This document shows, piece by piece, positions 3,430 to 23,786 of a stretch of 41,570 bases of DNA. The position numbers and the translations under genes were made by a program. Position 1 is the first letter of the stretch; every line of letters starts with the position of its first letter. A model generated the notes under the pieces. It ran no database searches. It saw only the letters and a list, made by a program, of their open reading frames with translations, and was not told where the DNA came from. The stretch is from a virus. The stretch lies in IMG/VR virus record IMGVR_UViG_3300045988_048710; one strand, 5' to 3'.

Positions 3430-3644
3430 TTGCCCTCAAAGAAAAGCTTCATGTCATCTGCTTCGAAATGGATCACCCGGTTCAGGGCGACCAGTTCATC
3501 CCGTGTCCATGTCCCGTCCCGCATCCGCTTTCTGTAGGTAGATGCGGGGATCTTCGTCTTACGGACGAGATCTCCGGTTCCAAGCCCCGCAAGAGCTGTC
3601 CGGGCCCGGATCGCATCCGCGAAGGTTGCAGTGTGCTTATTCAT
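3426..3644 (-). CDS. Small HTH DNA-binding protein (72 aa)
   Basis: LAGLGTGDLVRKTKIPASTYRKRMRDG is helix-turn-helix-like. ATGA-type coupling to neighbours. Confidence 0.5.
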   Translation of the reverse strand: MNKHTATFADAIRARTALAGLGTGDLVRKTKIPASTYRKRMRDGTWTRDELVALNRVIHFEADDMKLFFEGK

Positions 3645-4083
3645 ACTTCTTCCTCAGCCATTCGCAATACTCAAATCCCAGCCCTGCGTTTGAAATCAGA
3701 GAAATAAGTGCCTCGTGCTTCGCGCTTCTTCTCATTTCCGCTGTACGGCTATTCTCTACGTCTGTTCCCATAAACGGTTCTCTGCTGTCAGCAGCGTGAT
3801 TGAACAGGAGATTTTTCAGATCCTCGAACTTCGAATCTTTCTCCGTATCTGGAACATCCTCCGTTTTCTTCTCCGGTTCCCCTGCGAGGAAGAAATCATC
3901 AAGAACTCTCTTTGTTTCCGCAGCTGCAATTGCGCAAGCTTGGATTGATGTCCCGATGGGTACGGTTGCAACCAACGTCGTAGTAACTACGTCGGAAATT
4001 GCGCTTGCAAGCTGCGCTTTGGAGATCATCGTCTTTTCATTTCCGAGCTTCTCCTCTAATTTTTCAAAACTGTGTTTATTCAT
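3637..4083 (-). CDS. Hypothetical early protein, paralog B of a tandem pair
   Basis: Internal ATG at 4083 (MNKHSFEKLEEKL). Shares ISKAxL, VLDxFF, DLKxLLF, AGL..YCxW and a terminal YE with the upstream gene. Confidence 0.55.
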   Translation of the reverse strand: MNKHSFEKLEEKLGNEKTMISKAQLASAISDVVTTTLVATVPIGTSIQACAIAAAETKRVLDDFFLAGEPEKKTEDVPDTEKDSKFEDLKNLLFNHAADSREPFMGTDVENSRTAEMRRSAKHEALISLISNAGLGFEYCEWLRKKYE

Positions 4084-4477
4084 AGCCCTTCTCCTCCTTC
4101 CAAGCGCAATACCTAGCTTCCAACCCCGCATCTCTGACCAGACCGAACAGAGCGTTAAACTTGCCATATGCCTCCTCCGAATGTTCTGCTGCGTACTGCT
4201 CTACCGCGAGATGCGCCTGCTCAAAGAGCAGATCCTTGAGCGCCATCAGCTCTGTCTTTTCTGCAGACTTCTCAGCATCCGGCTCCTCTTCCTTTTTCTC
4301 CGGGAAGAATTCATCAAGGACCTTTAACATCTCCATTGACGCATTAAGTATTCCTGCGGTCTCGTTTTCCGGCTCCGAGGCAGCATTTGCGATTCTGCTG
4401 CAGACCTTGATGAGGTCTGCTTTGGAAATCTCTGCCTTCTCCTTGCTGACCTTCTCCTTCCACTCTTCGTAATCCAT
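4076..4477 (-). CDS. Hypothetical early protein, paralog A of a tandem pair
   Basis: MDYEEWKEKVSKEKAEISKADL...VLDEFF...LKDLLF...AGLEARYCAWKEEKGYE. Confidence 0.6.
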   Translation of the reverse strand: MDYEEWKEKVSKEKAEISKADLIKVCSRIANAASEPENETAGILNASMEMLKVLDEFFPEKKEEEPDAEKSAEKTELMALKDLLFEQAHLAVEQYAAEHSEEAYGKFNALFGLVRDAGLEARYCAWKEEKGYE

Positions 4478-4490
4478 TTCTGTCCCTCCT

Positions 4491-4538
4491 TCGCTACAAC
4501 TGTGTCGTTTTCGCTACAACTGTGCCGTTTTGGCTACA
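4491..4538. repeat. Two 20-bp direct repeats TCGCTACAACTGTG(T/C)CGTTT plus a partial third
   Basis: 4491-4510 and 4511-4530, then tggctaca. They resemble TTTCGCTATAATCGTAGCGTTTT at about 7662-7686 and the CGTGTCAACT arm repeats at attP. Confidence 0.5.
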
Positions 4539-4744
4539 TTCTTAGCAAAAAAAATACGCTCACGATCGCTTTTAGATAAATGAAGAGCTTTGCATAATCC
4601 CTCTATTTCAGGTGCAGAAAACTCTCCTATACCGCGTAAACGATTGTAAAGCGTAGGTCTACTAATGCCAGATTTCTTGGCGATTGATGACATCGTCATC
4701 CCGCTGTTTCGAATTTCTTGATTTAATGCAAAAAAGTCAGTCAC
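4514..4744 (-). CDS. Cro-like / early lytic HTH regulator
   Basis: GTG start preceded by AGGAGG. MTMSSIAKKSGISRPTLYNRLRG is an HTH. Divergent from the CI-like repressor. Confidence 0.65.
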   Translation of the reverse strand: MTDFFALNQEIRNSGMTMSSIAKKSGISRPTLYNRLRGIGEFSAPEIEGLCKALHLSKSDRERIFFAKNVAKTAQL

Positions 4745-4785: not shown

Positions 4786-4814
4786 AATGTACAGCCTTCG
4801 CCCCGTTATGTCAA
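4786..4814 (-). promoter_or_regulatory. Candidate early lytic promoter
   Basis: On - strand: TTGACA (4809-4814), 17-nt spacer, TACATT (4786-4791), about 40 nt upstream of the cro-like GTG. Confidence 0.5.
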
Positions 4815-4835
4815 CATCTTTTTTCAAAATGTTGA
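4811..4835. promoter_or_regulatory. Operator palindrome TCAACAT-N11-ATGTTGA spanning both -35 boxes
   Basis: Perfect 7-bp arms at 4811-4817 and 4829-4835. Each arm overlaps the -35 hexamer of one divergent promoter. Confidence 0.55.
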
Positions 4836-4860
4836 TAAGCTGACACATATGATATAGAAT
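4832..4860 (+). promoter_or_regulatory. Candidate repressor (lysogenic) promoter
   Basis: TTGATA (4832-4837), 17-nt spacer, TAGAAT (4855-4860), just upstream of the GGAGG RBS and ATG 4881. Confidence 0.5.
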
Positions 4861-4880
4861 TGTGTATGGAGGAAGAAAAA

Positions 4881-5201
4881 ATGAATATCTATGAAAGAAT
4901 ACGTCACCGACGTGAACAGCTAGATATGTCTCAAGAAGAACTGGCTAGTAAAATCGGATATAAGGATAGAACTGCCGTTTCAAAAATGGAAAATGGACAA
5001 CGGCAAATCAAACAAAGCATGATTGTAAAGCTTGCGGCTGCTCTCGACACCACCCCATCCTATCTAATGGGCTGGGATAAGGAAGATGACGATGCAACGC
5101 TAAGTGACAGACTGCTGACAAGGTACAGGGAGCTCGACGATCTGGATCAGGCGATGGTACGGAGGCTTCTGAAGTGTGATGAAGATTTCAATAAAGTATA
5201 G
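4881..5201 (+). CDS. CI-like XRE-family repressor
   Basis: ATG 4881 after GGAGG. MNIYERIRHRREQLDMSQEELASKIGYKDRTAVSKMENGQRQ is a canonical XRE HTH. Divergent from the cro-like gene. Confidence 0.8.
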   Translation: MNIYERIRHRREQLDMSQEELASKIGYKDRTAVSKMENGQRQIKQSMIVKLAAALDTTPSYLMGWDKEDDDATLSDRLLTRYRELDDLDQAMVRRLLKCDEDFNKV

Positions 5202-5302
5202 GAGGGGGAATGTCATAGCACCGAGTAGAAACTTCATAGCACATTATAATAAAACATCAAAAATGATATCGTATGTGATACTATTATCAGGTAGGAGGTC
5301 TT

Positions 5303-5572
5303 GTGTCCAAAAGAGATAAGTTATTAAAAAAATTCTTTGCGGAAAAGCCACCGGTAGATATAACATGGGCGGAGCTTTCTGCCGTTTCAGATATTTTTGG
5401 GTGTGTCGTAACTGAGAGAACCAATCACCGGGCAGTTGTTCACCCCAATGACCCGAAGTGGATTTACCCCGTTCCGGTACATGCGGAAGGCCATCCGATC
5501 AAGAGAGCATATATTGTAGAACTGCGAAAGAAATTTCTTGAACTAAACCCGGAGGTGTTAAATGAAATATAG
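5303..5572 (+). CDS. hicA: HicA-family toxin (long N-terminal variant)
   Basis: GTG start after AGGAGG. KLLKKFFAEKPPVDITWAELSAVSDIFGCVV..NHRAVVHPNDPKWIYPVPVHAEGHPIKRAYIVEL matches the HicA/YcfA pattern. It overlaps the following hicB by 11 nt. Confidence 0.6.
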   Translation: MSKRDKLLKKFFAEKPPVDITWAELSAVSDIFGCVVTERTNHRAVVHPNDPKWIYPVPVHAEGHPIKRAYIVELRKKFLELNPEVLNEI

Positions 5573-6026
5573 TTATAGCATTTCTAAAGAATTAATAGAG
5601 GGAACTGTGTATTGGGTCGCCCGGTGTCTTGAAATAGATACAATTATCGGGCAGGGAGTTACACAGGAAGAGGCTATTGCGGAATTGGAAGAAAATGAAG
5701 CAACATGGCTTGCTATGGCTCCGGAAGTTGGAATTGAAATTCCAGAGCCCAAAATTGCCGTAGCTTCACCAAAATACAGTGGGAAGTTCATGCTCAGAAT
5801 TTCGCCAAATATGCACAAGGTAGCAGCCACTCACGCCAAGGAACAAGGCATTAGTCTGAACCAGTATATTTCAGACGCTACCACCTATTACAATTCCTAT
5901 AATGACCGCATGAAAAATGCAGATATATATGCTTCTGTCGAGTCAAGATCATTCTCTGCGGAATACTGCAACTCATCTCATGCACAGGTCATTGTTCACG
6001 ATTTCAACTCAAGAAAGGAAATGTGA
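5562..6026 (+). CDS. hicB: HicB-family antitoxin with RHH domain and an extra C-terminal tail of about 45 aa
   Basis: The N-terminal fold motif (VYWVARCLEIDTIIGQGVTQEEAIAELEEN) and YSGKFMLRISPNMHKVAATHAKEQGISLNQYISDA are typical HicB. The tail NSYNDRMKNADIYASVESRSFSAEY... extends beyond the RHH. Confidence 0.7.
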   Translation: MKYSYSISKELIEGTVYWVARCLEIDTIIGQGVTQEEAIAELEENEATWLAMAPEVGIEIPEPKIAVASPKYSGKFMLRISPNMHKVAATHAKEQGISLNQYISDATTYYNSYNDRMKNADIYASVESRSFSAEYCNSSHAQVIVHDFNSRKEM

Positions 6027-6030
6027 TCTT

Positions 6031-6408
6031 ATGTTGAGCCGCTATGATTCTCACGTGGTAAATGTTCACCTGATTAACAGACTGTCTGCGGATGAAAAAA
6101 TCAATATACATCCTTGCCTTCAGCATCAAATCCATTCGTTTGAAAATGGATGTATAACCGGGATGTTCCGTATTGTTATTTCTTCTCCAGATGAAAAAGA
6201 GATCCCAGAAAACGGCAAAAGATTTTATATCGTATATGAGTTGTCTTTTTCGGCTGCAAGTTCTGATAAGGATGCTGATATATCAGATCTTATTTCCGAT
6301 GCTGCACCAATCGCATATAGCGAAATAAGAGCAGGAATTGACGCAATGGTTGGTCTTTCCGGGATGGCACGTGTTGCATTACCTTGCAGCTTTGATCAAT
6401 TCGTATAA
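6031..6408 (+). CDS. SecB-like chaperone (putative third TAC component)
   Basis: ATG 6031 lies 4 nt after the hicB stop. The C-terminal APIAYSEIRAGIDAMVGLSGMARVALPCSFDQFV parallels SecB [34 protein letters not shown]. Size is 125 aa. Confidence 0.5.
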   Translation: MLSRYDSHVVNVHLINRLSADEKINIHPCLQHQIHSFENGCITGMFRIVISSPDEKEIPENGKRFYIVYELSFSAASSDKDADISDLISDAAPIAYSEIRAGIDAMVGLSGMARVALPCSFDQFV

Positions 6409-6446: not shown

Positions 6447-6499
6447 CCGCCCGGTGTTGGCGCACCGGGCGGATCCGCTCCGAAGAGCAGTATTTTTTT
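6447..6499 (+). terminator. Terminator hairpins after the TA cassette
   Basis: ccgcccggtg-ttggcg-caccgggcgg (6447-6472), flanked by an A-run upstream. Then gctc-cgaa-gagc followed by tattttttt. Confidence 0.55.
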
Positions 6500-6591: not shown

Positions 6592-7614
6592 ATGAAAGTA
6601 ACGAAATTACCAAGCGGAAATTATAGATGTCGCGTATACGTAGGGAAGGACGCTTCCGGGAAAAAGAGGTGGAAGTCGATCACCGGACCGGACAAGAAGA
6701 GGGTAGTGCTGGAAGCCAGTAAATTTTCCGTAGAGCGGGACGCAAGCGCTCCCGTCGTTGATACTGCATCCTTCAAGCACGCAGCCGACACGTTTTTGGG
6801 CTCCCACGAGTCTGTGCTGAGCCCTTCGACCTATCGAGCATATAAATGCTTTCTGAGGATCTACGAGAGCAAATTGCCCCTATTCTGCGAGAAATCCATA
6901 TATACCATTTCTACTGCGGATCTGCAAATGGTCGTGGACTTCTTCGTGCGGCAAGGCCTGAAGCCGAAAACCATCCGGAATTACTACGGTTTCGTGTCTG
7001 CGGTCCTTGTCAATGCCGGGATCAATGTCCGGCCCCCAAGACTTCCGCAGAAGGAACGCCCGGAAATTTACATACCGGATGAGGCTACCGTGCGGAAGCT
7101 CCTCCAGCTTGTAGAAGGAACAGAACTGGAGATCCCCGTCCTGCTGGCAGCGTTCGGCCCGCTCCGTCGTGGAGAAATCTGTGCCTTGTCGATGGATGAC
7201 ATCAAAGACGGAATATGCCATGTTCATCACGATCTCGCGCAGAACGCAGACGGAGAGTGGGTGGTTAAAGCCCCAAAGACCTACTCTTCCGACAGATACA
7301 TTGAGCTTCCTGCCTTCGTGGTAGATACAATCAATCGGAACGGTTCCATCACAAGTCTTACTCCGGATCAGATTTCGTGGAAGTTTTCCGACGTCTTGGA
7401 GCAGAACGGTCTTCCACATTTCCGGTTCCACTCTCTCAGGCATTTCTGCATCAGCTACCTGCACAGCATCGGTATCCCGGATGTGTATATCATGCAGAGA
7501 TCCGGGCACTCTACGGCGACCGTACTCCGGGCCGTCTACACGCATACTCTGCAGGACCGTTCAAAGACAGAGACGGAAAAAATCCTCGGGAAGTTTTCCT
7601 CTTTCAGAGAGTAA
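6592..7614 (+). CDS. int: Tyrosine integrase (phage integrase family)
   Basis: N-terminal arm-binding-type MKVTKLPSGNYRCRVYVGKDASGKKRW. Catalytic LRRGEI, FRFHSLRHF and GHSTATVLRAVYTH give the R..HxxR..Y signature. Confidence 0.9.
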   Translation: MKVTKLPSGNYRCRVYVGKDASGKKRWKSITGPDKKRVVLEASKFSVERDASAPVVDTASFKHAADTFLGSHESVLSPSTYRAYKCFLRIYESKLPLFCEKSIYTISTADLQMVVDFFVRQGLKPKTIRNYYGFVSAVLVNAGINVRPPRLPQKERPEIYIPDEATVRKLLQLVEGTELEIPVLLAAFGPLRRGEICALSMDDIKDGICHVHHDLAQNADGEWVVKAPKTYSSDRYIELPAFVVDTINRNGSITSLTPDQISWKFSDVLEQNGLPHFRFHSLRHFCISYLHSIGIPDVYIMQRSGHSTATVLRAVYTHTLQDRSKTETEKILGKFSSFRE

Positions 7615-7640
7615 TTTCGTGTCAACTTTTCGTGTCAACT
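7615..7640 (+). repeat. attP arm-type repeat pair (TTTCGTGTCAACT x2)
   Basis: Tandem 13-bp units at 7615-7627 and 7628-7640, immediately after the int stop. Confidence 0.6.
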
Positions 7641-7702
7641 CTGCCGCTAAAACGGTGCTTTTTTCGCTATAATCGTAGCGTTTTCGATACGGCCTGAGCA
7701 CT

Positions 7703-7748
7703 GAAAACCCCCGTAAATTCAAGGTTTTCTTGAACTTACGGGGTTTTC
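7703..7748. terminator. Long imperfect hairpin between int and the attP core
   Basis: gaaaacccccgtaaattcaag / cttgaacttacggggttttc form a stem of about 19 bp with one mismatch and one bulge. An A-run and a T-run lie at the stem ends. Confidence 0.5.
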
Positions 7749-7755
7749 TCATTCA

Positions 7756-7780
7756 CTGGGCTAGTAGGATTCGAACCTCA
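7756..7780 (-). other. attP core: 3' end fragment of a tRNA gene (T-loop plus acceptor 3' strand)
   Basis: The - strand reads GAGGTTCGAATCCTACTAGCCCAG. It has the GGTTCGAATCC T-loop signature, then TAGCCCA-G, reminiscent of Firmicutes tRNA-Gln ends (from memory). No D or anticodon arm lies upstream, so it is not a full tRNA. Confidence 0.6.
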
Positions 7781-7822
7781 TTGGTTTACATTAAAAACGT
7801 TGAAAGAAAAGGATTTTTCACA

Positions 7823-7848
7823 CTCCGTGTCAACTCTCCGTGTCAACT
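7823..7848 (+). repeat. attP arm-type repeat pair (CTCCGTGTCAACT x2)
   Basis: Tandem 13-bp units at 7823-7835 and 7836-7848, with the same CGTGTCAACT core and orientation as 7615-7640. Confidence 0.6.
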
Positions 7849-8023: not shown

Positions 8024-8332
8024 CTACATCTCCTTATAGATTGACTGATAAGTCTTTGCGGCTGCAATTGCTTCAATCTGCTTCTTCTCTGCGTAGCTGC
8101 AGATCTCCTGCATAGCTTCACTGAAGCATCCCTCTTCTTTCTTCTTCTCAATCACCTTGCTAAGAGCTTCGTGCAGCCTTGTAGCGTGTGTTCCTTCCTC
8201 TGCACTGATGGTTGCAAGGGTCGATGCGACTCCCGGCATCTTCTCCTTCAGTGCTGCCGCCCACTTCGCATAGTGCTTCATATCCTCGATCTCTTCGTCG
8301 ATCTGGTCGAGGAATGCATTGATCTGATCCAT
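8024..8332 (-). CDS. Hypothetical helical protein (102 aa), possibly a ferritin-like four-helix bundle
   Basis: GGAGGG RBS. EEIEDMKHYAKWA and AEEGTHATRLHEAL (ExxH) suggest a ferritin-like half-site, but this is weak. Confidence 0.55.
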   Translation of the reverse strand: MDQINAFLDQIDEEIEDMKHYAKWAAALKEKMPGVASTLATISAEEGTHATRLHEALSKVIEKKKEEGCFSEAMQEICSYAEKKQIEAIAAAKTYQSIYKEM

Positions 8333-8341
8333 ATGCCCTCC

Positions 8342-8791
8342 TTATGCCAGTTTGACGATGCATCCGGATACAAGGTTTACCGTTCCGGCTGCTGCGCCCT
8401 CTGCGCCTATGAGGAGCTGGATCCGCGTAGGTTCCTGACAGCAGCACGTAGCCAGGTATCGGACCGTCCCTGTTTCCATGACGGAATCCCCGACTGCAAG
8501 GGTCTGCGTCCTCTTTGTTTCCTGCAGAGGAATGCCGTTCTTCGCCATCTGGAGCGATACATCTCCTGCCGCTGTCGCATTGATGTTGACGGCGAATTCG
8601 ATCTGGTAGAGACCGCCGTGCTCAATCTCGATTGCAGCGGGCAGGACCTTGACGGAGGCTCCGGTGTCGGTGACTTCCGATCCAAGCAGGTTGAGCGCTG
8701 CCACAGCGCTTCCGATAGTCTGCGCAGCAGTGTTGTAGAACTGCGCAGAGGATTTATAGTGTGGGTTTTTAAGACAGTTACAATTTGCCAT
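8342..8791 (-). CDS. C1q/TNF-like (BclA C-terminal domain-like) protein with CCC motif
   Basis: The GGLYQIEFAVNINATAAGDVSLQMAKNGIPL...TVNLVSGCIVKLA pattern resembles the BclA C-terminal jelly-roll. N-terminal MANCNCLKN and internal ATCCCQEP are Cys clusters. Confidence 0.45.
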   Translation of the reverse strand: MANCNCLKNPHYKSSAQFYNTAAQTIGSAVAALNLLGSEVTDTGASVKVLPAAIEIEHGGLYQIEFAVNINATAAGDVSLQMAKNGIPLQETKRTQTLAVGDSVMETGTVRYLATCCCQEPTRIQLLIGAEGAAAGTVNLVSGCIVKLA

Positions 8792-8845
8792 TGTGTATTA
8801 CCTCGTATGAAAGACCCCGCCGCCATACAGCGGCAGGGCGTACAG

Positions 8846-9451
8846 TTAGTTGTAGTTTCCGCAGCACGGAGACGGGTTGTACGGATACACTCCGTATGCG
8901 TAGGGATTCGTTCTCGGAATCCCGCACATTGCCGCCTGAAGCTGAAGCTGATTGATCTGGTTCTGCATGTCAGCCATGCGGTTTCCAGCAATCGCATCGA
9001 GCACCTTCTGCACCTGTGCAGTGGTGGTCTGATTGATCGAAGCAGTGTTGATAGCACCCTCGTACTTCACACCATCAATTGCTCTTTGTGTATCGCAGCA
9101 ACACTTCTGCATGTCCGTGAAGCCAGCATTAACCGCTGTTTCAAGATCTCTGATCTCTCCAAGCGTGTTATAGTTGGCATCCTTGACAGCTCCGGTCGTG
9201 TCATACACGCCCTGACGGACTGCATCCGTGATCTCGTTGTTCTGTCTTTCGAGCGCCGCAAAATCGGTCGATCTCTGGACATCTCCAACGGTTGCGCCAC
9301 GATCTCCGGTTTTCCCGCCGAAAAGACCGCCACCGCCACCGATTGCGAGCAGGATCAGCAGTGCAAAGATCCACATACCGCCGCCGCAACCACCGGCACC
9401 TTCATTTCCCATAACGGCTGCCATATCAGCCGGGGACATTGTTCCATCCAT
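8846..9451 (-). CDS. Membrane-anchored Cys-rich protein (201 aa)
   Basis: GGAGG RBS. TM segment GMWIFALLILLAIGGGGGLFGG, then a Q/N/T-rich helical region with KCCCDTQ and a C-terminal YPYNPSPCCGNYN. Confidence 0.6.
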   Translation of the reverse strand: MDGTMSPADMAAVMGNEGAGGCGGGMWIFALLILLAIGGGGGLFGGKTGDRGATVGDVQRSTDFAALERQNNEITDAVRQGVYDTTGAVKDANYNTLGEIRDLETAVNAGFTDMQKCCCDTQRAIDGVKYEGAINTASINQTTTAQVQKVLDAIAGNRMADMQNQINQLQLQAAMCGIPRTNPYAYGVYPYNPSPCCGNYN

Positions 9452-22100: not shown

Positions 22101-23786
22101 TATAAGTTTTCTTGCCCGCGCATTGTGGTTCTTAAAGATATCCCAGAACTTATCTGCAGACGCAATCTCAGTTGCAACTTCAATGCCTGCGCTGGTGAGT
22201 GCGTTTGTCATAGCCTTCTCCTGCGTCTGATTCTTGTCTGCAATGTTCTGACTGATAGAGGAAGCGTATGCATTCGCTCCGAATGGAGCAAGGGAAAGAG
22301 CACTTCTTCCAATTCTCGCCGCAACCCCTGATCCGCTTACAGCTCCACCAAGTGCTCCGGTTTCCCAGGATTCGGCAGAAGACATTCCGGCCGCATACAA
22401 GCCTCCAAGCAGCTTACTCTTCTGGTTGATGGCATTTTGTGTCGTAGACTGGTAATCCGTAGTTGCATTCGATGCTCCGAAGGCCACAGAGTTTACGTTC
22501 ATCGGGGACTTCTTATCCCGATATCCGCCGCCGTAATACTTTGCGGTCTCTCCGATTGCTCCGATTCCTGCATACGGGTTCAGGGTAAGCGCAGTTGCTG
22601 TGTTCTTGATCCCGCCGAGAATATTCTTTGCCGTGCTGTCCTGATGCACATTGTTGTAAGCTTCCTGCTTCTGCTGCTGCCTGTTGCTGTAATCATCGAG
22701 TTCCTTCCCATAGTAGGAGAGGTCATCAATATCATTATCGCTCAGACCGTATTTCTTCTTGACTGACTCACGGAAGGAATCTGCATCCTTCTGCGCCTGT
22801 TCTCCGAAATCGGTCTGAATATTGCTGGCAGACTCCGCAAGACCGGAGCTCCTCTGCATCTTCGCCTCAGATACCATCGAGTTGTACCTGCTGATATCTG
22901 TTCTGAGAGAGTCGCTGTTGTTCTTCCCTTTGGTCTTGAACACGTTTTCTGCATATTCGAGCTCCTGAGAATATGTCCGCTTTCCACTCTTGCTCGCCTC
23001 TTCCGCAGCCTCCTTGTCAGCCTGCTCCTGATCGTTCATCCCTTGCCACGTGCTGTACGTAGCATCATTAACGCCATATTTTTTCTTGAACTGGTCAGCA
23101 AGATTCTGCGCTTCCTGCTGGCTCTGCTTTGTCTTTCCTGTGATGCCGTTCAGGATTCCACCCGTGCTCTGTGTTTCCCCGATCTGAGAGAGCTCCTTCT
23201 TCTGCTCATCAGTGATTCCGGAATATGAATCCTGTGCAGCGAGAGCCTGCTGAGCACGATACGCCTTATACCCTGCCATCAGGTTCTTATATGCCTCATC
23301 GTCCACAGAATTTTCCTTCTTGAACTGGTTTGCCATATAATCCGATGTTGTATAGCCGCTGTATCGATCTCCTCCAGACGGAGTCATAGACTGTGCTGTG
23401 TAAATGTTCTCAAGTGCCGACTTTTGTGCAGTGCTTGCATTGCGATACATGTTGGATGCATCGATATCGCCCTGAGTGAATCCGTTCTGCAGGAGCCGGT
23501 TATTCCGCTGTTCCTCCATTTCTCTCTGATACTGCAGATATTTCTGCTGTGCCTGCAGGTTTTTCATGGCCTCACGACCAGCAATTGCAGCGGCATCTGG
23601 ACCGTTCTGCGCAATATCGGCATATCTCTGATTTACCTGTGCAGCACGAATAGACTGCTCCTCCTCAGAAGGAACAGCCCACGGCTCATAAGTAAAGCTT
23701 TCGCCTTCTTTTTTTCTGCGCTTTTCAATGTCGTCCACCGCCGAATTGATTGCTTTAAATGCTCTTGTTGCTGCCGAATATGCCAT
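13194..23786 (-). CDS. Giant 3,530-aa mosaic virion-associated (polyvalent / ejected) protein
   Basis: Single uninterrupted 10,593-nt ORF in the structural gene block. It contains repeated KKKYG(V/L)xD motifs, Gly/Ala-rich hydrophobic segments, an AT-rich cassette, a YHGT...YFT ART-like signature and a long C-terminal region. Confidence 0.8.
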   Translation of the reverse strand: MAYSAATRAFKAINSAVDDIEKRRKKEGESFTYEPWAVPSEEEQSIRAAQVNQRYADIAQNGPDAAAIAGREAMKNLQAQQKYLQYQREMEEQRNNRLLQNGFTQGDIDASNMYRNASTAQKSALENIYTAQSMTPSGGDRYSGYTTSDYMANQFKKENSVDDEAYKNLMAGYKAYRAQQALAAQDSYSGITDEQKKELSQIGETQSTGGILNGITGKTKQSQQEAQNLADQFKKKYGVNDATYSTWQGMNDQEQADKEAAEEASKSGKRTYSQELEYAENVFKTKGKNNSDSLRTDISRYNSMVSEAKMQRSSGLAESASNIQTDFGEQAQKDADSFRESVKKKYGLSDNDIDDLSYYGKELDDYSNRQQQKQEAYNNVHQDSTAKNILGGIKNTATALTLNPYAGIGAIGETAKYYGGGYRDKKSPMNVNSVAFGASNATTDYQSTTQNAINQKSKLLGGLYAAGMSSAESWETGALGGAVSGSGVAARIGRSALSLAPFGANAYASSISQNIADKNQTQEKAMTNALTSAGIEVATEIASADKFWDIFKNHNARARKLIVDYLVRAGIEGSEEVVGDIADNFMDAVNNGKNSDYNQSVRDYMMQGMSKDEAKKQSTKDQISEAARDFAVAALSGAMGAGIATASGYANDAYNSKTMFDGYTKEDYAQWAEGLDTDPTHYKNASTAQSAEMAKSLAEKMAQEDNATPRQKRELYEYYQDMQNTEMEAAAESEEKENRKDKIEGIKNKVGSFFGRNEAAEGQQAAEHTNTVESSDTQKTAMVEPQNVPEEHRTQSTDIEPNDAYAKMAAAQNGEELRNAYQEAVHSTNKDTREHADSDLQIVSGMLQKRGISEEEIESAKISTEDAYAAGYSGQEISENVPAAVKIAYNDGQKRAIEDRARQTLEARDSVKRTAAKQITDGARTIIEANYKDGMNASAYNDVVSSAINAGRTGMSYENYLKKAGSSVSIVGEDLAKKAYAAGLQVSVNDAVKEVARSMSEKTGVKTFGTGTFTDARSNTSEAFSGASVMQAVAKMTGLNVVLTDQNFREGENGYYKSGNSTIYINSERAENAASTLFHEVGEFASVWNQKEYAGVVSDIMKTSQDVLGTRTFNNIRQKYVNAYLGEEGKTDADVDKEMANDLIYQFLGNEKGMNKLMDQIDQNHGYKEAKSIKQKLADWVGHMVESIKNFLSDLNPNSYQRKMAEANLQNYEELQDAIVKSIANAEKSYSEAKAQSQQDVATDESAKRKSIEVLPDTINDDIEDNIRNFGDMKPVIDVPNNAFERGEKKLSEQVKEYFLENSNNGIVYGNVIGDVDIVAGIKSDIAHGVGRMKAMAFYAVPETIKKGVIVDYQKNRKQRGYDSLLLAAPIRIQNEAGNFENAVEMVAINRSNTDVQKFYFHEAFIINEDESLFKNGRPNRSLPVNDSSSSVYSIARRLIKGNGEGNSVNVDSDTKRMSKQIQEVQDEIADTKEKRDLTGDEKIEKTEDFIAVHNLTMDQLMKDINMGGFPSPSIAIIRSAMQHTRYGDVSVIFNRDTIDPERSKANKVYGGDAWTPTFPGIEYDVNEDKYYSVMHSVDDAMKGKVPEYLRAEAKRFNTPGMNSTAEKGGVDAVVEKAKDNYGMKAAYLASKGETIEDQVHQKEVRKYDDEKANRFDKMEEAIAPVEDEFLKDRSVLSARDMLQKYGGQIQQAYEAYAETVPEDQKKRWTGRVKRANEKAFFAHNIIDDITNAIDYYNNGNESHTENERDTAAIEKQIDSKVDPEGYDAWLRETYDGLIRDEGIYNGKDPFTASGTRKSFRQMHYAVTLENIVRAMNEAGAKAVGTFGGISAVREEAVKDFSSVAEMHQNEGMLRTMNQDEYRNMEGEYINQIRQISHRIARSGQNSLIQDDNAADAILDAVRTRKTAAGIEKALKSYGMNVYEGVGNDILNLMHKISEMPTEYFEAKPQRAVGLDEIAMVVAPDTITKEQTRTLNENRIPLQTYEAGNEDARHQVIEDLQDVRFSRPVQDSEGRNLSEGQQEFFKDSKLKDEYGRLLVMYHGTPQGGFTVFKPDISYFTANRDYAEEYARASSGNSRVNYTHDPEHKVYEVYLNAKKPFDTRDPKVRKVWEQEFFGKYSRTPLTDRGLLDWTDGYDIWDFIDDNDLDYDAVLLDEGSVPNGNGGTRWRGISYTVRDKNQIKNVDNKTPTDDSDIRRDIGIDDYVTDQELWSDYYDTKKSLIEVLRSGNEILKHSDIDKTAVRRIAREIKEQYHSNIDVNELSENLAKVFRYAQGQNYIDYDDLATVISEVASPVIDGSVTKVGAEEFKQFKNALQGVTYNLDSKQEAEVVSAFGSWGNFRKAIPGVKFTRDGSGVSLDGVWSTLVQETGYVLDMDTSSNDMPLALVDAYNSMKPEYQNAFGEDATQAAQDVAMEIVARYYQYSAGQEKLKLKAKQKQELLDQARRMAASNAEYRKKIKQEYQKRYEAELSKVKQSGGRSEPVSKQVAKLRARNARTVASIREEQRRKDELRRLRTPVKNIMDMLTSPTDKKHVPAFVQTPVLQLAAAFDFVPQTVRETADGKFSIRILESRDINADGSYSYKWRTIRADSREDAIAQYKKAMDENGLGSAENKSWQERLWAVQNLYQQDESDDWFERSELKQGLDKELGEKLGKILRDNQGMLSIAQLSSSELRTLNEVVRNVLHAVNQINRMYSKPSQHVSDIAHMVMDRTTSGVKGRREHFKPVATLVDTLTLDHAVAETYFHGIFGGKETDPITKTLYRAEDQKSRDIHQAQDYMADVCDRLATEKEMESWMNETKNYYGLDLTTTQIMSLYELSKRPDAQQHKIGGFVADESNREKVSGQRIPVHLTNEQIKEITDTLTPQQKQMADAMQYYLAHQCAEQGNETCMQLYGYEKFVDEHYFPMTTDKNTIATRDSNVTQGAINAIKNSGFTKDITPEADNPLVLRDIFMVYVDHVAQMATYHAWAAPLQDLIRFFNYNEKAYVEREDGQKFAFRNSVKDAIDYYYGKKGQEYFVKLISSINDREKSSFVGGNFYDMLTGHAKTAATLGNGRVIIQQPTAIFRAGEMISYEYLNAGIVGKYRKEAAELRDRTSDIFWLKNQGNIDGYITQSLVSTITGVKTTREKILDFAGKPASKADEITWAAIYRAVYAEQVDKLGEGKIGTKEFEDAVNDRYSDIVRRTQVYDSVITRSQFMRSPDTKNRMMSAFMAEPVKTYNMILRDMIDISQAEDERQVKKAKAHLVRVTAPVLLITHVINAAAMSFADAFRSAGDPDDEDKNFLRRFMDAMGFGNWLDEDASFGDKLKEFLNGNLVDNMDLLSNIPMVAQYWDATKEGVKSVLGESTYSSDSDLSMSGVKNFFKAVKAIVNPSEKMTTYGKVAALTRAFSDLSGYPLYAAQRDVVAIYNTLLGRTIEQLPVLQKTTKYTPKRQAKLDVYTAALESGGDYKKAVEDAVAQGNDYKAISSGISDTYKNTYLALKETNPNEAIKMKNRLVTLYVYLSDKAGTNKDKTTSEKTKYYSDNIDKWK

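What the first reader, a model, noticed from the sequence alone, without database searches (positions are those of the whole stretch)
5303..6408. Prophage-borne three-gene HicA / HicB / SecB-like toxin-antitoxin-chaperone (TAC) cassette
Three tightly packed + strand genes lie between the repressor and the integrase. The first is a HicA-like toxin. The second is a HicB-like antitoxin whose RHH domain is followed by an extra tail of about 45 aa (encoded about 5889-6026). The third, 4 nt later, is a 125-aa protein whose C-terminus aligns by eye with the SecB C-terminal helix region. Tripartite TAC systems are best known from the M. tuberculosis HigBA-SecB-like locus. In those systems the antitoxin carries a C-terminal chaperone-addiction extension. 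As far as I recall, HicAB-linked versions have been noted in bacterial chromosomes. A TAC in the lysogeny module of a Firmicutes-type phage would point to a lysogen-expressed abortive-infection, exclusion or stabilisation function. The SecB assignment is the weak link.
Basis: partly seen in the sequence, partly recalled or inferred. Interest (0 to 1): 0.7.

Follow-up and report, generated by a model that had tools for sequence, protein, structure and literature searches.

The report
Phage HicA/HicB toxin-antitoxin with SecB-like chaperone
A temperate phage of gut Clostridia carries, between its repressor and integrase genes, a three-gene toxin / antitoxin / SecB-like chaperone cassette, a type of system already known from other bacteria and prophages, so this is a well-supported but fairly ordinary new example.

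Summary
Three tightly packed + strand genes sit between an XRE repressor and a tyrosine integrase: 5303-5572, 5562-6026 and 6031-6408.

- **Gene 1** is a divergent HicA. It is below Pfam's cut-off by itself but clearly homologous to Pfam-positive HicA toxins, and the catalytic His is kept.
- **Gene 2** is a HicB with an RHH domain plus a tail of about 48 aa. Two-gene relatives lack this tail, and it is predicted disordered.
Its AlphaFold model (pLDDT 89.7) has SecB and the M. tuberculosis SecB-like chaperone as its top PDB matches. Profile-profile comparison with Pfam-positive SecB proteins gives 96% probability. Some relatives at the same position pass Pfam SecB.

Across 73 non-redundant HicB loci, a SecB-like downstream gene occurs only beside long-tailed HicB (18/33 vs 0/40).

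HicAB-SecB toxin-antitoxin-chaperone (TAC) systems have been validated experimentally. Prophage TACs placed after the repressor are known anti-phage systems. I therefore call this a new member of a known kind.

Chaperone dependence and any defence role remain inferred. One natural relative lacks the chaperone gene but keeps the toxin and the tailed antitoxin.

The parts
4860..5201 (+). XRE/cI-type repressor (context). It lies immediately upstream and is co-oriented with the cassette.
   Evidence: Pfam HTH_3 60 bits and HTH_31 44.5 bits. A divergent Cro-like HTH gene lies at 4514-4744 on the minus strand, and divergent promoter-like sites lie at 4786-4860.
5263..5283 (.). Conserved imperfect palindrome TGATATCGTATGTGATACTAT, 20 nt upstream of the g1 start. 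Probably the HicB (RHH) operator, overlapping an extended -10-like TGnGATACT. This role is inferred.
   Evidence: Inverted repeat I1. The block is invariant in L001, L018 and L005 while the surrounding intergenic DNA has diverged.
5303..5572 (+). g1: HicA-family toxin, 89 aa, GTG start. Putative catalytic His42 in the motif TNH.
   Evidence: Pfam HicA_toxin 16.2 bits (below cut-off) and PHROG 8887 'toxin' at 1e-5. Of 33 syntenic upstream proteins, 22 hit HicA_toxin. hhalign 99%, phmmer up to 50 bits. His42 nearly invariant.
5562..6026 (+). g2: HicB antitoxin, 154 aa. N-terminal HicB domain (residues 1-56), linker, RHH DNA-binding domain (about residues 71-106), then a C-terminal tail.
   Evidence: Pfam HicB 54.6 bits over residues 71-106. 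PHROG HicB-like. AF2 secondary structure. Top Foldseek matches are HicB structures 6g1c, 6hpb, 6g26 and 4p78.
5880..6023 (+). C-terminal extension of HicB (residues 107-154), a candidate chaperone-addiction (ChAD) segment.
   Evidence: Absent from 105-121 aa homologues. Residues 119-154 have pLDDT 31-36. F/W/Y content is 14.6% against 7.5% in the core. Identity to L001 is 24.5%, against 72% for the core. It occurs only with a SecB-like gene downstream.
6031..6408 (+). g3: short SecB-like chaperone, 125 aa, with four beta strands and one long helix. The second C-terminal helix and the acidic tail of export SecB are missing.
   Evidence: No hit in Pfam, NCBIfam, PHROGs or PADLOC. AF2 pLDDT 89.7, pTM 0.82. 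All 21 top Foldseek PDB hits are SecB, Rv1957 or two Streptococcus proteins of unknown function (2o2a, 2hng), with TM 0.6-0.68. Top BFVD hits are phage 'SecB' proteins, TM 0.77. hhalign 96.3% against Pfam-positive SecBs. Family profile against PDB SecB gives E = 5.4e-8.
6447..6472 (.). GC-rich hairpin after g3. Its U-run lies on the minus strand only, so it looks like a terminator for leftward (antisense) transcription, not for the cassette.
   Evidence: Terminator scan and the sequence.
6592..7614 (+). Tyrosine integrase (context).
   Evidence: Pfam Phage_integrase 34.5 bits. 56% identical to the integrase of prophage L001, which abuts tRNA-Pro.
7618..7847 (.). attP-like region (context). It holds two pairs of CGTGTCAAC repeats flanking a hairpin and a 13-nt match to a tRNA T-arm.

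Best explanation
The cassette is a tripartite toxin-antitoxin-chaperone (TAC) operon of the HicAB type, carried as a low-GC 'moron' in the lysogeny module of a temperate phage of gut Clostridia.

**Shown by sequence or structure analysis**
- g1 is a HicA-family protein that keeps the catalytic histidine.
- g2 is a HicB with an N-terminal toxin-binding domain, an RHH DNA-binding domain and a roughly 48-aa disordered, aromatic-rich C-terminal extension.
- g3 has the SecB fold and belongs to a SecB-like clade found only downstream of long-tailed HicB genes.
- The three genes are translationally coupled and co-oriented with the repressor.

**Inferred by analogy with characterised TACs (M. tuberculosis HigBA1-SecB^TA; Methylomonas HicAB-SecB^TA; E. 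coli prophage HigBAC and CmdTAC)**
1. In the lysogen, HicB dimers bind the conserved palindrome upstream of g1 and neutralise HicA.
2. The HicB tail makes the antitoxin prone to aggregation and to protease attack unless a tetramer of the SecB-like protein holds it.
3. When the chaperone is titrated away, HicB is lost. The most likely titrant is unfolded structural proteins of a superinfecting phage. Proteotoxic stress or loss of the prophage could have the same effect.
4. Free HicA then cleaves mRNA and arrests the cell. This aborts the infection and protects the lysogen population, and so the resident prophage.
For: **Gene anatomy.** Overlap and spacing are given.

**HicA.**

**HicB and its tail.**

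**SecB fold and homology of g3**
- AF2 model built only from Pfam-negative family members: pLDDT 89.7.
- Foldseek top hits 1qyn, 1ozb, 1fx3 and 5mtw at probability 1.0.
- An HMM built from the g3 family alone hits downstream genes of other long-tailed HicB loci. Among these, L036, L028 and L075 pass Pfam SecB's gathering score.
- The iterated HMM scores E. coli SecB at 27.3 bits.
- hhalign 96.3%, E = 1.9e-9. PDB SecB E = 5.4e-8 and Rv1957 E = 7.6e-4.

**Tail and chaperone go together**
- Genomes: 18/33 long-tailed against 0/40 short-tailed HicB loci have a SecB-like gene next door, Fisher p = 1.9e-8.
- Viral contigs: 9/12 against 0/12.
- Window against L001: tail 24.5% and chaperone 38% identical, while toxin and HicB core are both 72%.

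**Lysogeny-module position and conservation.** XRE / HicA / HicB / SecB-like / integrase recurs in L001-L004 and L125. Cassette GC is 41.5% against 49.9% for the window.

**Literature**
- HicAB-type TACs exist and one is validated, including transfer of its ChAD (PMC3581621, PMC5105189).
- ChAD is bound in extended form by a SecB^TA tetramer (PMC6377645).
- Prophage HigBAC lies in the variable locus downstream of cI. There the chaperone senses a phage structural protein (bioRxiv 10.1101/2024.02.24.581848). CmdTAC is described in PMC11618068.
Against: - No experiment exists for this cassette or for any close relative.
- g3 itself gets no hit in Pfam SecB, NCBIfam, PHROGs or PADLOC.
- A small g3-family profile does not reach SecB in PDB sequences. 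Single-sequence hhalign is weak. The SecB assignment therefore rests on the fold model, transitive profiles and synteny.
- g3 lacks the second helix of SecB, so its oligomeric state and client groove may differ.
- In L005/L006 (two samples) the chaperone gene is cut after about 8 codons. An intact HicA with its His and a tailed HicB remain. Either dependence is not absolute, or a chaperone acts in trans, or that toxin is silent.
- 15 of 33 long-tailed HicB loci have no recognisable SecB-like neighbour. Some of these sit at contig ends.
- The contingency counts are not phylogenetically independent.
- The anti-phage role is analogy only.
Confidence: 0.8

Rival explanations
1. Same three-part TAC biochemistry, but the selected function is stabilisation of the element (addiction or post-segregational killing) and not defence. 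Cells that lose or excise the prophage lose the labile HicB-chaperone pair and are arrested by the longer-lived HicA.
For: - The cassette persists as a stand-alone chromosomal remnant beside tRNA-Pro with no repressor or integrase. This is seen in L018 and L121-L124, which come from several MAGs. Such persistence is expected of an addictive module.
- TAC systems are often found on plasmids and in horizontally acquired regions (PMC3581621).
Against: - Persistence of a remnant is equally expected for a useful defence gene.
- The characterised prophage TACs act in phage defence (bioRxiv 10.1101/2024.02.24.581848; PMC11618068).
- The fast divergence of chaperone and tail fits a sensor under arms-race pressure better than a simple addiction module does.
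- The two functions are not exclusive.
Confidence: 0.25
2. g3 is a SecB-fold phage chaperone with its own clients, such as virion or secreted proteins. It is linked to an ordinary two-component HicAB only by position, and the HicB tail is a neutral linker remnant.
For: - Solitary SecB genes exist in phages, for example phiCD119 (PMC3581621) and 'SecB' proteins of metagenomic Siphoviridae.
- The L005/L006 variant keeps HicAB without g3.
- 15 long-tailed HicB loci lack a SecB-like neighbour.
Against: - In this sample the SecB-like gene is never found beside a short-tailed HicB: 0/40 and 0/12.
- The gap to HicB is -35 to +60 nt throughout, and 4 nt here.
- The gene lies in the lysogeny module, far from the structural genes.
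- Tail and chaperone diverge in parallel.
Confidence: 0.08
3. The cassette is a decayed, non-functional remnant: the toxin is inactive and the genes are drifting.
For: - g1 is below Pfam's HicA threshold.
- Its motif is TNH, where most relatives have GG[NKS]H.
Against: - All three ORFs are intact and conserved at protein level in relatives whose modules are down to 25-72% identical, with synteny and start positions kept.
- The catalytic His is retained.
- The AF2 model of g3 is confident.
- The upstream palindrome is conserved.
Confidence: 0.05

Closest known systems
Mmet-TAC of Methylomonas methanica MC09 (HicA Metme_2813 / HicB Metme_2812 / SecB^TA), validated in Bordes et al. 2016 (PMC5105189)
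   Same: - HicA toxin, RHH-type HicB with a C-terminal extension of about 40 aa (residues 119-159 there, 107-154 here), and a SecB-like chaperone downstream in one operon.
- ChAD sequences are reported as highly variable, as are the tails here.
   Different: - Proteobacterial chromosome there, temperate phage of Clostridia here.
- The chaperone here is shorter (125 aa, no second helix) and is not detected by Pfam SecB.
- No experimental data exist here.
M. tuberculosis TAC: HigB1-HigA1-SecB^TA (Rv1955-1957), PDB 5mtw (PMC6377645)
   Same: - Same three-part logic: the antitoxin's C-terminal ChAD is bound by a SecB-like tetramer.
- The g3 model superposes on Rv1957 (TM 0.63), and the family profile hits Rv1957 (E = 7.6e-4).
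   Different: - The toxin-antitoxin family differs: HigBA (a ribosome-dependent RNase and an HTH antitoxin) there, HicAB here.
- Rv1957 is 181 aa and can replace export SecB. g3 lacks the C-terminal helix and tail.
Prophage-encoded anti-phage TACs of E. coli: HigBAC (lambdoid prophage, downstream of cI) and CmdTAC (bioRxiv 10.1101/2024.02.24.581848; PMC11618068; PMC9519451)
   Same: - Carried by a temperate phage.
- HigBAC occupies the variable locus just downstream of the repressor, as this cassette does.
- The SecB-like chaperone stabilises the antitoxin through a ChAD.
   Different: - The toxins differ (HigB RNase, CmdT ADP-ribosyltransferase) and the host phylum differs.
- Defence and chaperone-based sensing are shown there and only inferred here.
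- PADLOC models do not detect this cassette.
Canonical export chaperone SecB (E. coli 1qyn, H. influenzae 1fx3/1ozb)
   Same: - Four-stranded sheet plus long helix.
- These are the best structural matches (TM 0.65-0.68).
- The helix region of canonical SecB carries an LFPY motif; g3 has IAYSEIRA at the equivalent place.
   Different: - No second helix and no acidic SecA-binding tail.
- 10-12% sequence identity.
- Encoded with a toxin-antitoxin pair in a phage.
- No direct Pfam match.
Two-gene HicAB systems of Clostridia and of Paenibacillus larvae phages
   Same: Homologous HicA and HicB cores.
   Different: The HicB ends 7-21 residues after the RHH domain, and no SecB-like gene follows.

Membership tests
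Toxin-antitoxin-chaperone (TAC) system | Toxin, antitoxin and chaperone genes are co-oriented and tightly linked in one operon | tested here: met
   g1 and g2 overlap by 11 nt, the g2-g3 gap is 4 nt, and each gene has an RBS. The same order is found in L001-L004, L007, L009, L018 and L125.
Toxin-antitoxin-chaperone (TAC) system | The third gene is homologous to SecB | tested here: met
   AF2 plus Foldseek. hhalign 96.3% against Pfam-positive SecBs. Family profile against PDB SecB gives E = 5.4e-8. A direct Pfam hit is absent.
Toxin-antitoxin-chaperone (TAC) system | The antitoxin carries a C-terminal extension that two-component homologues lack | tested here: met
   Alignment A4: the core ends at residue 106, short homologues end 7-21 residues later, and the protein here has 48 more.
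Toxin-antitoxin-chaperone (TAC) system | The extension co-occurs with the chaperone gene across relatives | tested here: met
   18/33 against 0/40 in genomes, p = 1.9e-8. 9/12 against 0/12 in viral contigs. The counts are not corrected for phylogeny.
Toxin-antitoxin-chaperone (TAC) system | The extension makes the antitoxin aggregation- or degradation-prone, and the chaperone binds it specifically (chaperone addiction) | not testable with these tools
   Only indirect support: the tail has pLDDT 31-36, is aromatic-rich and co-diverges with the chaperone. Counter-indication: the chaperone-less natural variant L005/L006.
Toxin-antitoxin-chaperone (TAC) system | Toxin neutralisation requires both antitoxin and chaperone | not testable with these tools
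   Needs co-expression assays.
HicA toxin (Pfam PF07927) | Score at or above the Pfam gathering threshold | tested here: not met
   16.2 bits against a cut-off of 27 for g1 by itself. However, 22 of 33 syntenic homologues match at E <= 0.01, and g1 is 99% (hhalign) and up to 50 bits (phmmer) related to them.
HicA toxin (Pfam PF07927) | Conserved catalytic histidine after the first helix (G-x-x-H type motif) | tested here: met
   His42 is nearly invariant in alignment A7. The motif here is TNH; most relatives have GG[NKS]H.
HicB antitoxin (Pfam PF05534, RHH type) | Pfam HicB domain above threshold, and an N-terminal HicB fold | tested here: met
   54.6 bits against a cut-off of 21. The AF2 N-domain is beta-beta-beta-alpha, and the top Foldseek hits are HicB structures 6g1c, 6hpb, 6g26 and 4p78. 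Probability reaches 1.0 but E is only about 0.02.
SecB (Pfam PF02556), canonical export chaperone | Score at or above the Pfam gathering threshold | tested here: not met
   No hit even at E <= 10 for g3. Relatives at the same position pass: L028 42.4, L075 40.6, L026 31.5 and L036 26.8 bits.
SecB (Pfam PF02556), canonical export chaperone | SecB fold: four-stranded antiparallel sheet followed by a long helix | tested here: met
   Strands at residues 2-16, 27-38, 41-51 and 65-77, helix at 84-109, pLDDT 89.7. TM 0.65-0.68 to 1qyn, 1ozb and 1fx3.
SecB (Pfam PF02556), canonical export chaperone | Second C-terminal helix and acidic tail that contact SecA | tested here: not met
   The protein ends 16 residues after the first helix. 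I therefore file it as SecB-like (the TA-associated type), not as an export SecB.
SecB (Pfam PF02556), canonical export chaperone | Homotetramer (dimer of dimers) | not testable with these tools
   Only monomer prediction was available.
Prophage-encoded anti-phage TAC (HigBAC / CmdTAC type) | Carried by a temperate phage in a lysogen-expressed accessory locus | tested here: met
   It lies between the repressor and the integrase and is co-oriented with the repressor. GC is 41.5% against 49.9%.
Prophage-encoded anti-phage TAC (HigBAC / CmdTAC type) | Protects against phage infection, with the chaperone sensing a phage protein | not testable with these tools
No PADLOC model matches.

The most novel reading that the evidence does not exclude
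The g3 family would be a minimal, Pfam-invisible SecB-like clade (about 125 aa, single helix) specific to temperate phages and prophage remnants of gut Clostridia. It would act as the phage-sensing subunit of a HicAB abortive-infection system. Its fast co-divergence with the HicB tail would reflect an arms race. The natural chaperone-less locus (L005/L006) would show that chaperone addiction can be bypassed or supplied in trans.
Probability: 0.3. Interest if true: 0.5.

Novelty: new member of a known kind. Interest (0 to 1): 0.3.

Why it matters
The finding extends the TAC family. TACs are so far best known from Mycobacterium and from E. coli prophages. This adds HicAB-type cassettes in temperate phages of human-gut Clostridia.

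It also shows that current family and defence-system libraries (Pfam, NCBIfam, PHROGs, PADLOC) miss the chaperone completely and the toxin partly. Such cassettes would be annotated as 'HicB plus two hypotheticals'. The g3-family alignment could seed a model to find them.

If the cassette does mediate exclusion of other phages, it is one more determinant of phage-phage competition in the gut. None of this changes the current understanding of how TAC systems work.

Tried and rejected
- **Library scans of g3.** Pfam, NCBIfam, PHROGs and PADLOC gave nothing. phmmer against PDB sequences gave only noise.
- **Small g3-family profile (A2) against PDB sequences.** No SecB; only chance hits to AP-3 mu and VirC2.
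- **hhalign of the g3 family against single SecB sequences.** Too weak to use (P = 0.05 and 0.006).
- **Word-indexed homologue search for g3.** Only 3 near-identical proteins.
- **Exhaustive HMMER search for g3.** It added only two 125-aa relatives (P0044, P0048) and an 81-aa fragment (P0043). The long proteins P0042, P0045, P0046 and P0047 had many matched stretches. P0042 and P0046 were read and are tandem-repeat proteins, so I rejected all four as spurious.
- **GenBank phage collection.**
  - DNA search of the locus: no match.
  - tblastn with g3 and with a Pfam-positive relative: no match.
  - tblastn with HicB: only two-gene HicAB phages.
- **IMG/VR scan with the g3 family pattern.** Nothing. 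The scan with HicB did recover viral TAC loci.
- **Downstream genes of long-tailed HicB loci missed by the SecB-like HMM.** I re-tested these with hhalign. Only L109 (50%) and L104 (5%) showed any hint, and the rest are unrelated.
- **Structure of g1 and of complexes.** AF2 of g1 with an alignment, and of a chaperone-tail complex, could not be run under the tool's input limits.
- **attP core as a tRNA 3' end.** Only a 13-nt T-arm match was found, and ARAGORN found no tRNA in the window. I leave this as a weak note.
Full report
**1. What is in the sequence**

The region 5303-6408 holds three + strand genes.

- g1: 5303-5572, GTG start, 89 aa, with AGGAGG 6 nt upstream.
- g2: 5562-6026, 154 aa, overlapping g1 by 11 nt.
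- g3: 6031-6408, 125 aa, starting 4 nt after the g2 stop.

The mechanical ORF for g3 begins at 5917. Homologues start at the position equivalent to 6031, directly after their HicB stop.

On the left lies an XRE repressor (4860-5201, HTH_3 60 bits), with a divergent Cro-like HTH gene. On the right lies a tyrosine integrase (6592-7614). The rest of the window encodes Sipho_Gp157, Erf, large terminase, portal and an internal virion protein. This is therefore a temperate-phage genome.

The integrase is followed by an attP-like region and then by accessory and lysis genes on the other strand. This is the excised gene order, not that of an integrated prophage.

The cassette has 41.5% GC against 49.9% for the window, which is typical of an acquired 'moron'.

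**2. Gene 1 is a HicA**

By itself g1 is below Pfam's threshold (HicA_toxin 16.2 bits, cut-off 27). It matches PHROG 8887 'toxin' at 1e-5.

I collected the genes upstream of HicB relatives in 33 loci. Of these, 22 match Pfam HicA_toxin (best E = 7.6e-11). g1 scores up to 50 bits against them by phmmer. Its small clade aligns to the rest with 99% hhalign probability.

His42, at the place of the catalytic histidine of HicA, is nearly invariant. The local motif here is TNH, where most relatives have GG[NKS]H.

**3. Gene 2 is a HicB with an extra tail**

Pfam HicB scores 54.6 bits over residues 71-106.

An AlphaFold model built with 19 homologues gives these elements:

- an N-terminal beta-beta-beta-alpha domain (residues 5-56);
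- a linker;
- two RHH helices (82-95 and 99-123);
- a tail, residues 119-154, with pLDDT 31-36.

The best PDB fold matches are HicB structures (6g1c, 6hpb, 6g26, 4p78). Their E-values are weak (about 0.02) because the model is a floppy multi-domain monomer.

In the alignment the conserved core ends at residue 106. Homologues of 105-121 aa stop 7-21 residues later. This protein and a subset of relatives carry 40-80 further residues that are not alignable except among close relatives.

**4. Gene 3 is SecB-like**

No family library recognises g3, and its sequence relatives are few. Four independent lines nevertheless place it with SecB.

(a) *Fold.* I built an AlphaFold model from 12 family members, none of which has a Pfam SecB hit. 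It has pLDDT 89.7 and pTM 0.82, with four strands and a long helix.
- Its 21 best PDB matches are all E. coli or H. influenzae SecB, the M. tuberculosis TAC chaperone Rv1957 with its ChAD peptide, or two Streptococcus proteins of unknown function (2o2a, 2hng). TM-scores are 0.6-0.68 at probability 1.0. The next hits, hot-dog thioesterases, have TM about 0.3.
- In the viral structure library the top hits are two metagenomic Siphoviridae proteins named SecB, with TM 0.77 and 0.65.

(b) *Synteny.* The gene after the long-tailed HicB in L009/L010 has a Pfam SecB hit at 4e-10.

(c) *Profiles.*
- An HMM of the g3 family alone hits the downstream genes of other long-tailed HicB loci. L036 (26.8 bits), L028 (42.4) and L075 (40.6) pass Pfam SecB's gathering score of 26.
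- After iteration the HMM scores E. coli SecB at 27.3 bits.
- hhalign of the g3 family against five Pfam-positive relatives plus E. coli SecB gives 96.3% probability, E = 1.9e-9, over g3 residues 41-125.
- A profile of 24 HicB-linked third genes hits PDB SecB 1fx3 at 5.4e-8, 1qyn at 5e-6 and Rv1957 at 7.6e-4.

(d) *Linkage to the tail.* See section 5.

g3 ends 16 residues after the first helix. It therefore lacks the second helix and the acidic tail of export SecB. I call it SecB-like and not a SecB.

**5. The tail and the chaperone belong together**

A scan of one genome per species with the HicB alignment gave 78 loci. Together with the loci fetched earlier, there were 73 non-redundant HicB genes.

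| HicB tail after the GISLNQ motif (RHH domain) | SecB-like gene directly downstream | No such gene |
|---|---|---|
| at least 35 residues | 18 | 15 |
| shorter | 0 | 40 |

Fisher's exact test gives p = 1.9e-8. These counts are not corrected for shared ancestry.

In IMG/VR viral contigs the figures are 9 of 12 long-tailed and 0 of 12 short-tailed.

Between the window and prophage L001, module identities differ sharply:

| Module | Identity, window vs L001 |
|---|---|
| Toxin | 72% |
| HicB core | 72% |
| HicB tail | 24.5% |
| Chaperone | 38% |

Tail and chaperone thus diverge together and faster than the rest. This matches the published description of ChAD sequences as highly variable and partner-specific (PMC5105189).

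**6. Regulation**

A palindromic element, TGATATCGTATGTGATACTAT (5263-5283), lies 20 nt before g1. It is invariant in three relatives whose surrounding intergenic DNA has diverged. It is the obvious candidate for the HicB RHH operator, and it overlaps an extended -10-like motif. This is inference.

No terminator separates the repressor gene from the cassette, so read-through from the repressor promoter is also possible.

The hairpin after g3 (6447-6472) has its U-run on the minus strand only.

**7. Where else it occurs**

- The same XRE / HicA / HicB / SecB-like / integrase module is found in integrated prophages next to tRNA-Pro (L001-L004). It is also found in a close relative of this phage (L125).
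- In Clostridium sp. CAG:508 (L018) and in four further MAG assemblies whose organism names were not retrieved (L121-L124), the three genes stand alone beside tRNA-Pro. They have no repressor or integrase, and sometimes another prophage's lysis genes follow (L018, L121-L124).
- More distant versions sit next to serine recombinases (L007, L010, L020).
- In L005/L006, from two independent samples, homology to g3 stops after about 8 codons at a junction with host DNA. HicA (with its His) and the tailed HicB remain intact. This is the main observation that does not fit strict chaperone addiction.

**8. Comparison with what is known**

- TAC systems are defined as a type II TA pair of the HigBA, MqsRA or HicAB family plus a SecB homologue in one operon. 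The antitoxin carries a variable C-terminal ChAD extension (PMC3581621, PMC5105189).
- A HicAB-type TAC from Methylomonas methanica was shown to be functional, with its ChAD at HicB residues 119-159 (PMC5105189).
- TACs occur in seven phyla including Firmicutes, and often on prophage regions, plasmids and islands (PMC3581621).
- E. coli prophage HigBAC lies in the variable locus downstream of cI. It defends against siphoviruses by recognition of the lambda major tail protein. CmdTAC defends against T-even phages (bioRxiv 10.1101/2024.02.24.581848; PMC11618068).

This cassette meets every structural criterion of a TAC that could be tested. What differs is the combination: a HicAB-type TAC, a Clostridia temperate phage, and a very short and divergent chaperone. 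No published or library record of this particular family was found.

**9. Verdict**

The cassette is best described as a new member of a known kind of system.

- Confidence that it is a HicA / HicB / SecB-like TAC operon: about 0.8.
- Confidence that its selected role is exclusion of other phages, as opposed to element stabilisation: about even.

Interest is modest. The result is a clean annotation gain and a candidate gut-phage defence module, not a new mechanism.

Noticed in passing
window 7618-7847: attP-like region just after the integrase. CGTGTCAAC occurs twice at 7618-7639 and twice at 7826-7847 (5 copies in the window against 0.21 expected). These repeats flank a 15-bp-stem hairpin (7709-7743) and a 13-nt match (7766-7778) to the T-arm of the tRNA-Pro that abuts the integrase in relatives. 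They are probably arm-type integrase sites around a tRNA-derived core.
   Followed up: partly
window 6447-6472: The strong GC hairpin after g3 has its T-run only on the minus strand. It should therefore stop leftward (antisense) transcription, not the TAC operon. How the operon terminates before the integrase gene is unclear.
   Followed up: no
L005 4480-4632 and L006 (same junction): Natural variant in which the SecB-like gene is cut after about 8 codons by a junction with host DNA (the end of an FtsW gene). An intact HicA and a tailed HicB remain. It was seen in two independent samples.
   Followed up: partly
L018 2742-3847; L121-L124: The three-gene cassette stands alone in Clostridium sp. 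CAG:508 (L018) and in four further MAG assemblies (L121-L124) beside tRNA-Pro and a MatE gene, without repressor or integrase. In L121-L123 the lysis genes of another prophage follow. It looks like a retained prophage remnant at an integration hot spot.
   Followed up: partly
L125 6001-6333 (protein P0002): A close relative of this phage carries a 15-residue in-frame deletion (SPDEKEIPENGKRFY) in the chaperone. The deletion covers the loop and the start of the fourth strand.
   Followed up: no
window 13194-23786 (minus strand): A single 3530-aa ORF lies in the late region. It is very large for a 41.6-kb phage and was not analysed.
   Followed up: no
window 8024-9451 (minus strand): Accessory genes next to the attP-like region: a rubrerythrin-like protein (8024-8332), a weak BclA C-terminal-domain-like protein (8342-8791, 23.9 bits, below cut-off) and a Gly/Cys-rich 201-aa protein with no family (8846-9451).
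   Followed up: no
window 3637-4477 (minus strand): Two adjacent early ORFs (3637-4167 and 4076-4477) have similar acidic sequences and similar C-termini (…GLGFEYCEWLRKKYE and …GLEARYCAWKEEKGYE). They match no family and may be paralogues.
   Followed up: no
window 5303-6408: The cassette has 41.5% GC and the adjacent repressor gene 43.3% (4860-5201). The integrase has 51.9% and the whole window 49.9%. The lysogeny-module left part seems compositionally distinct.
   Followed up: yes
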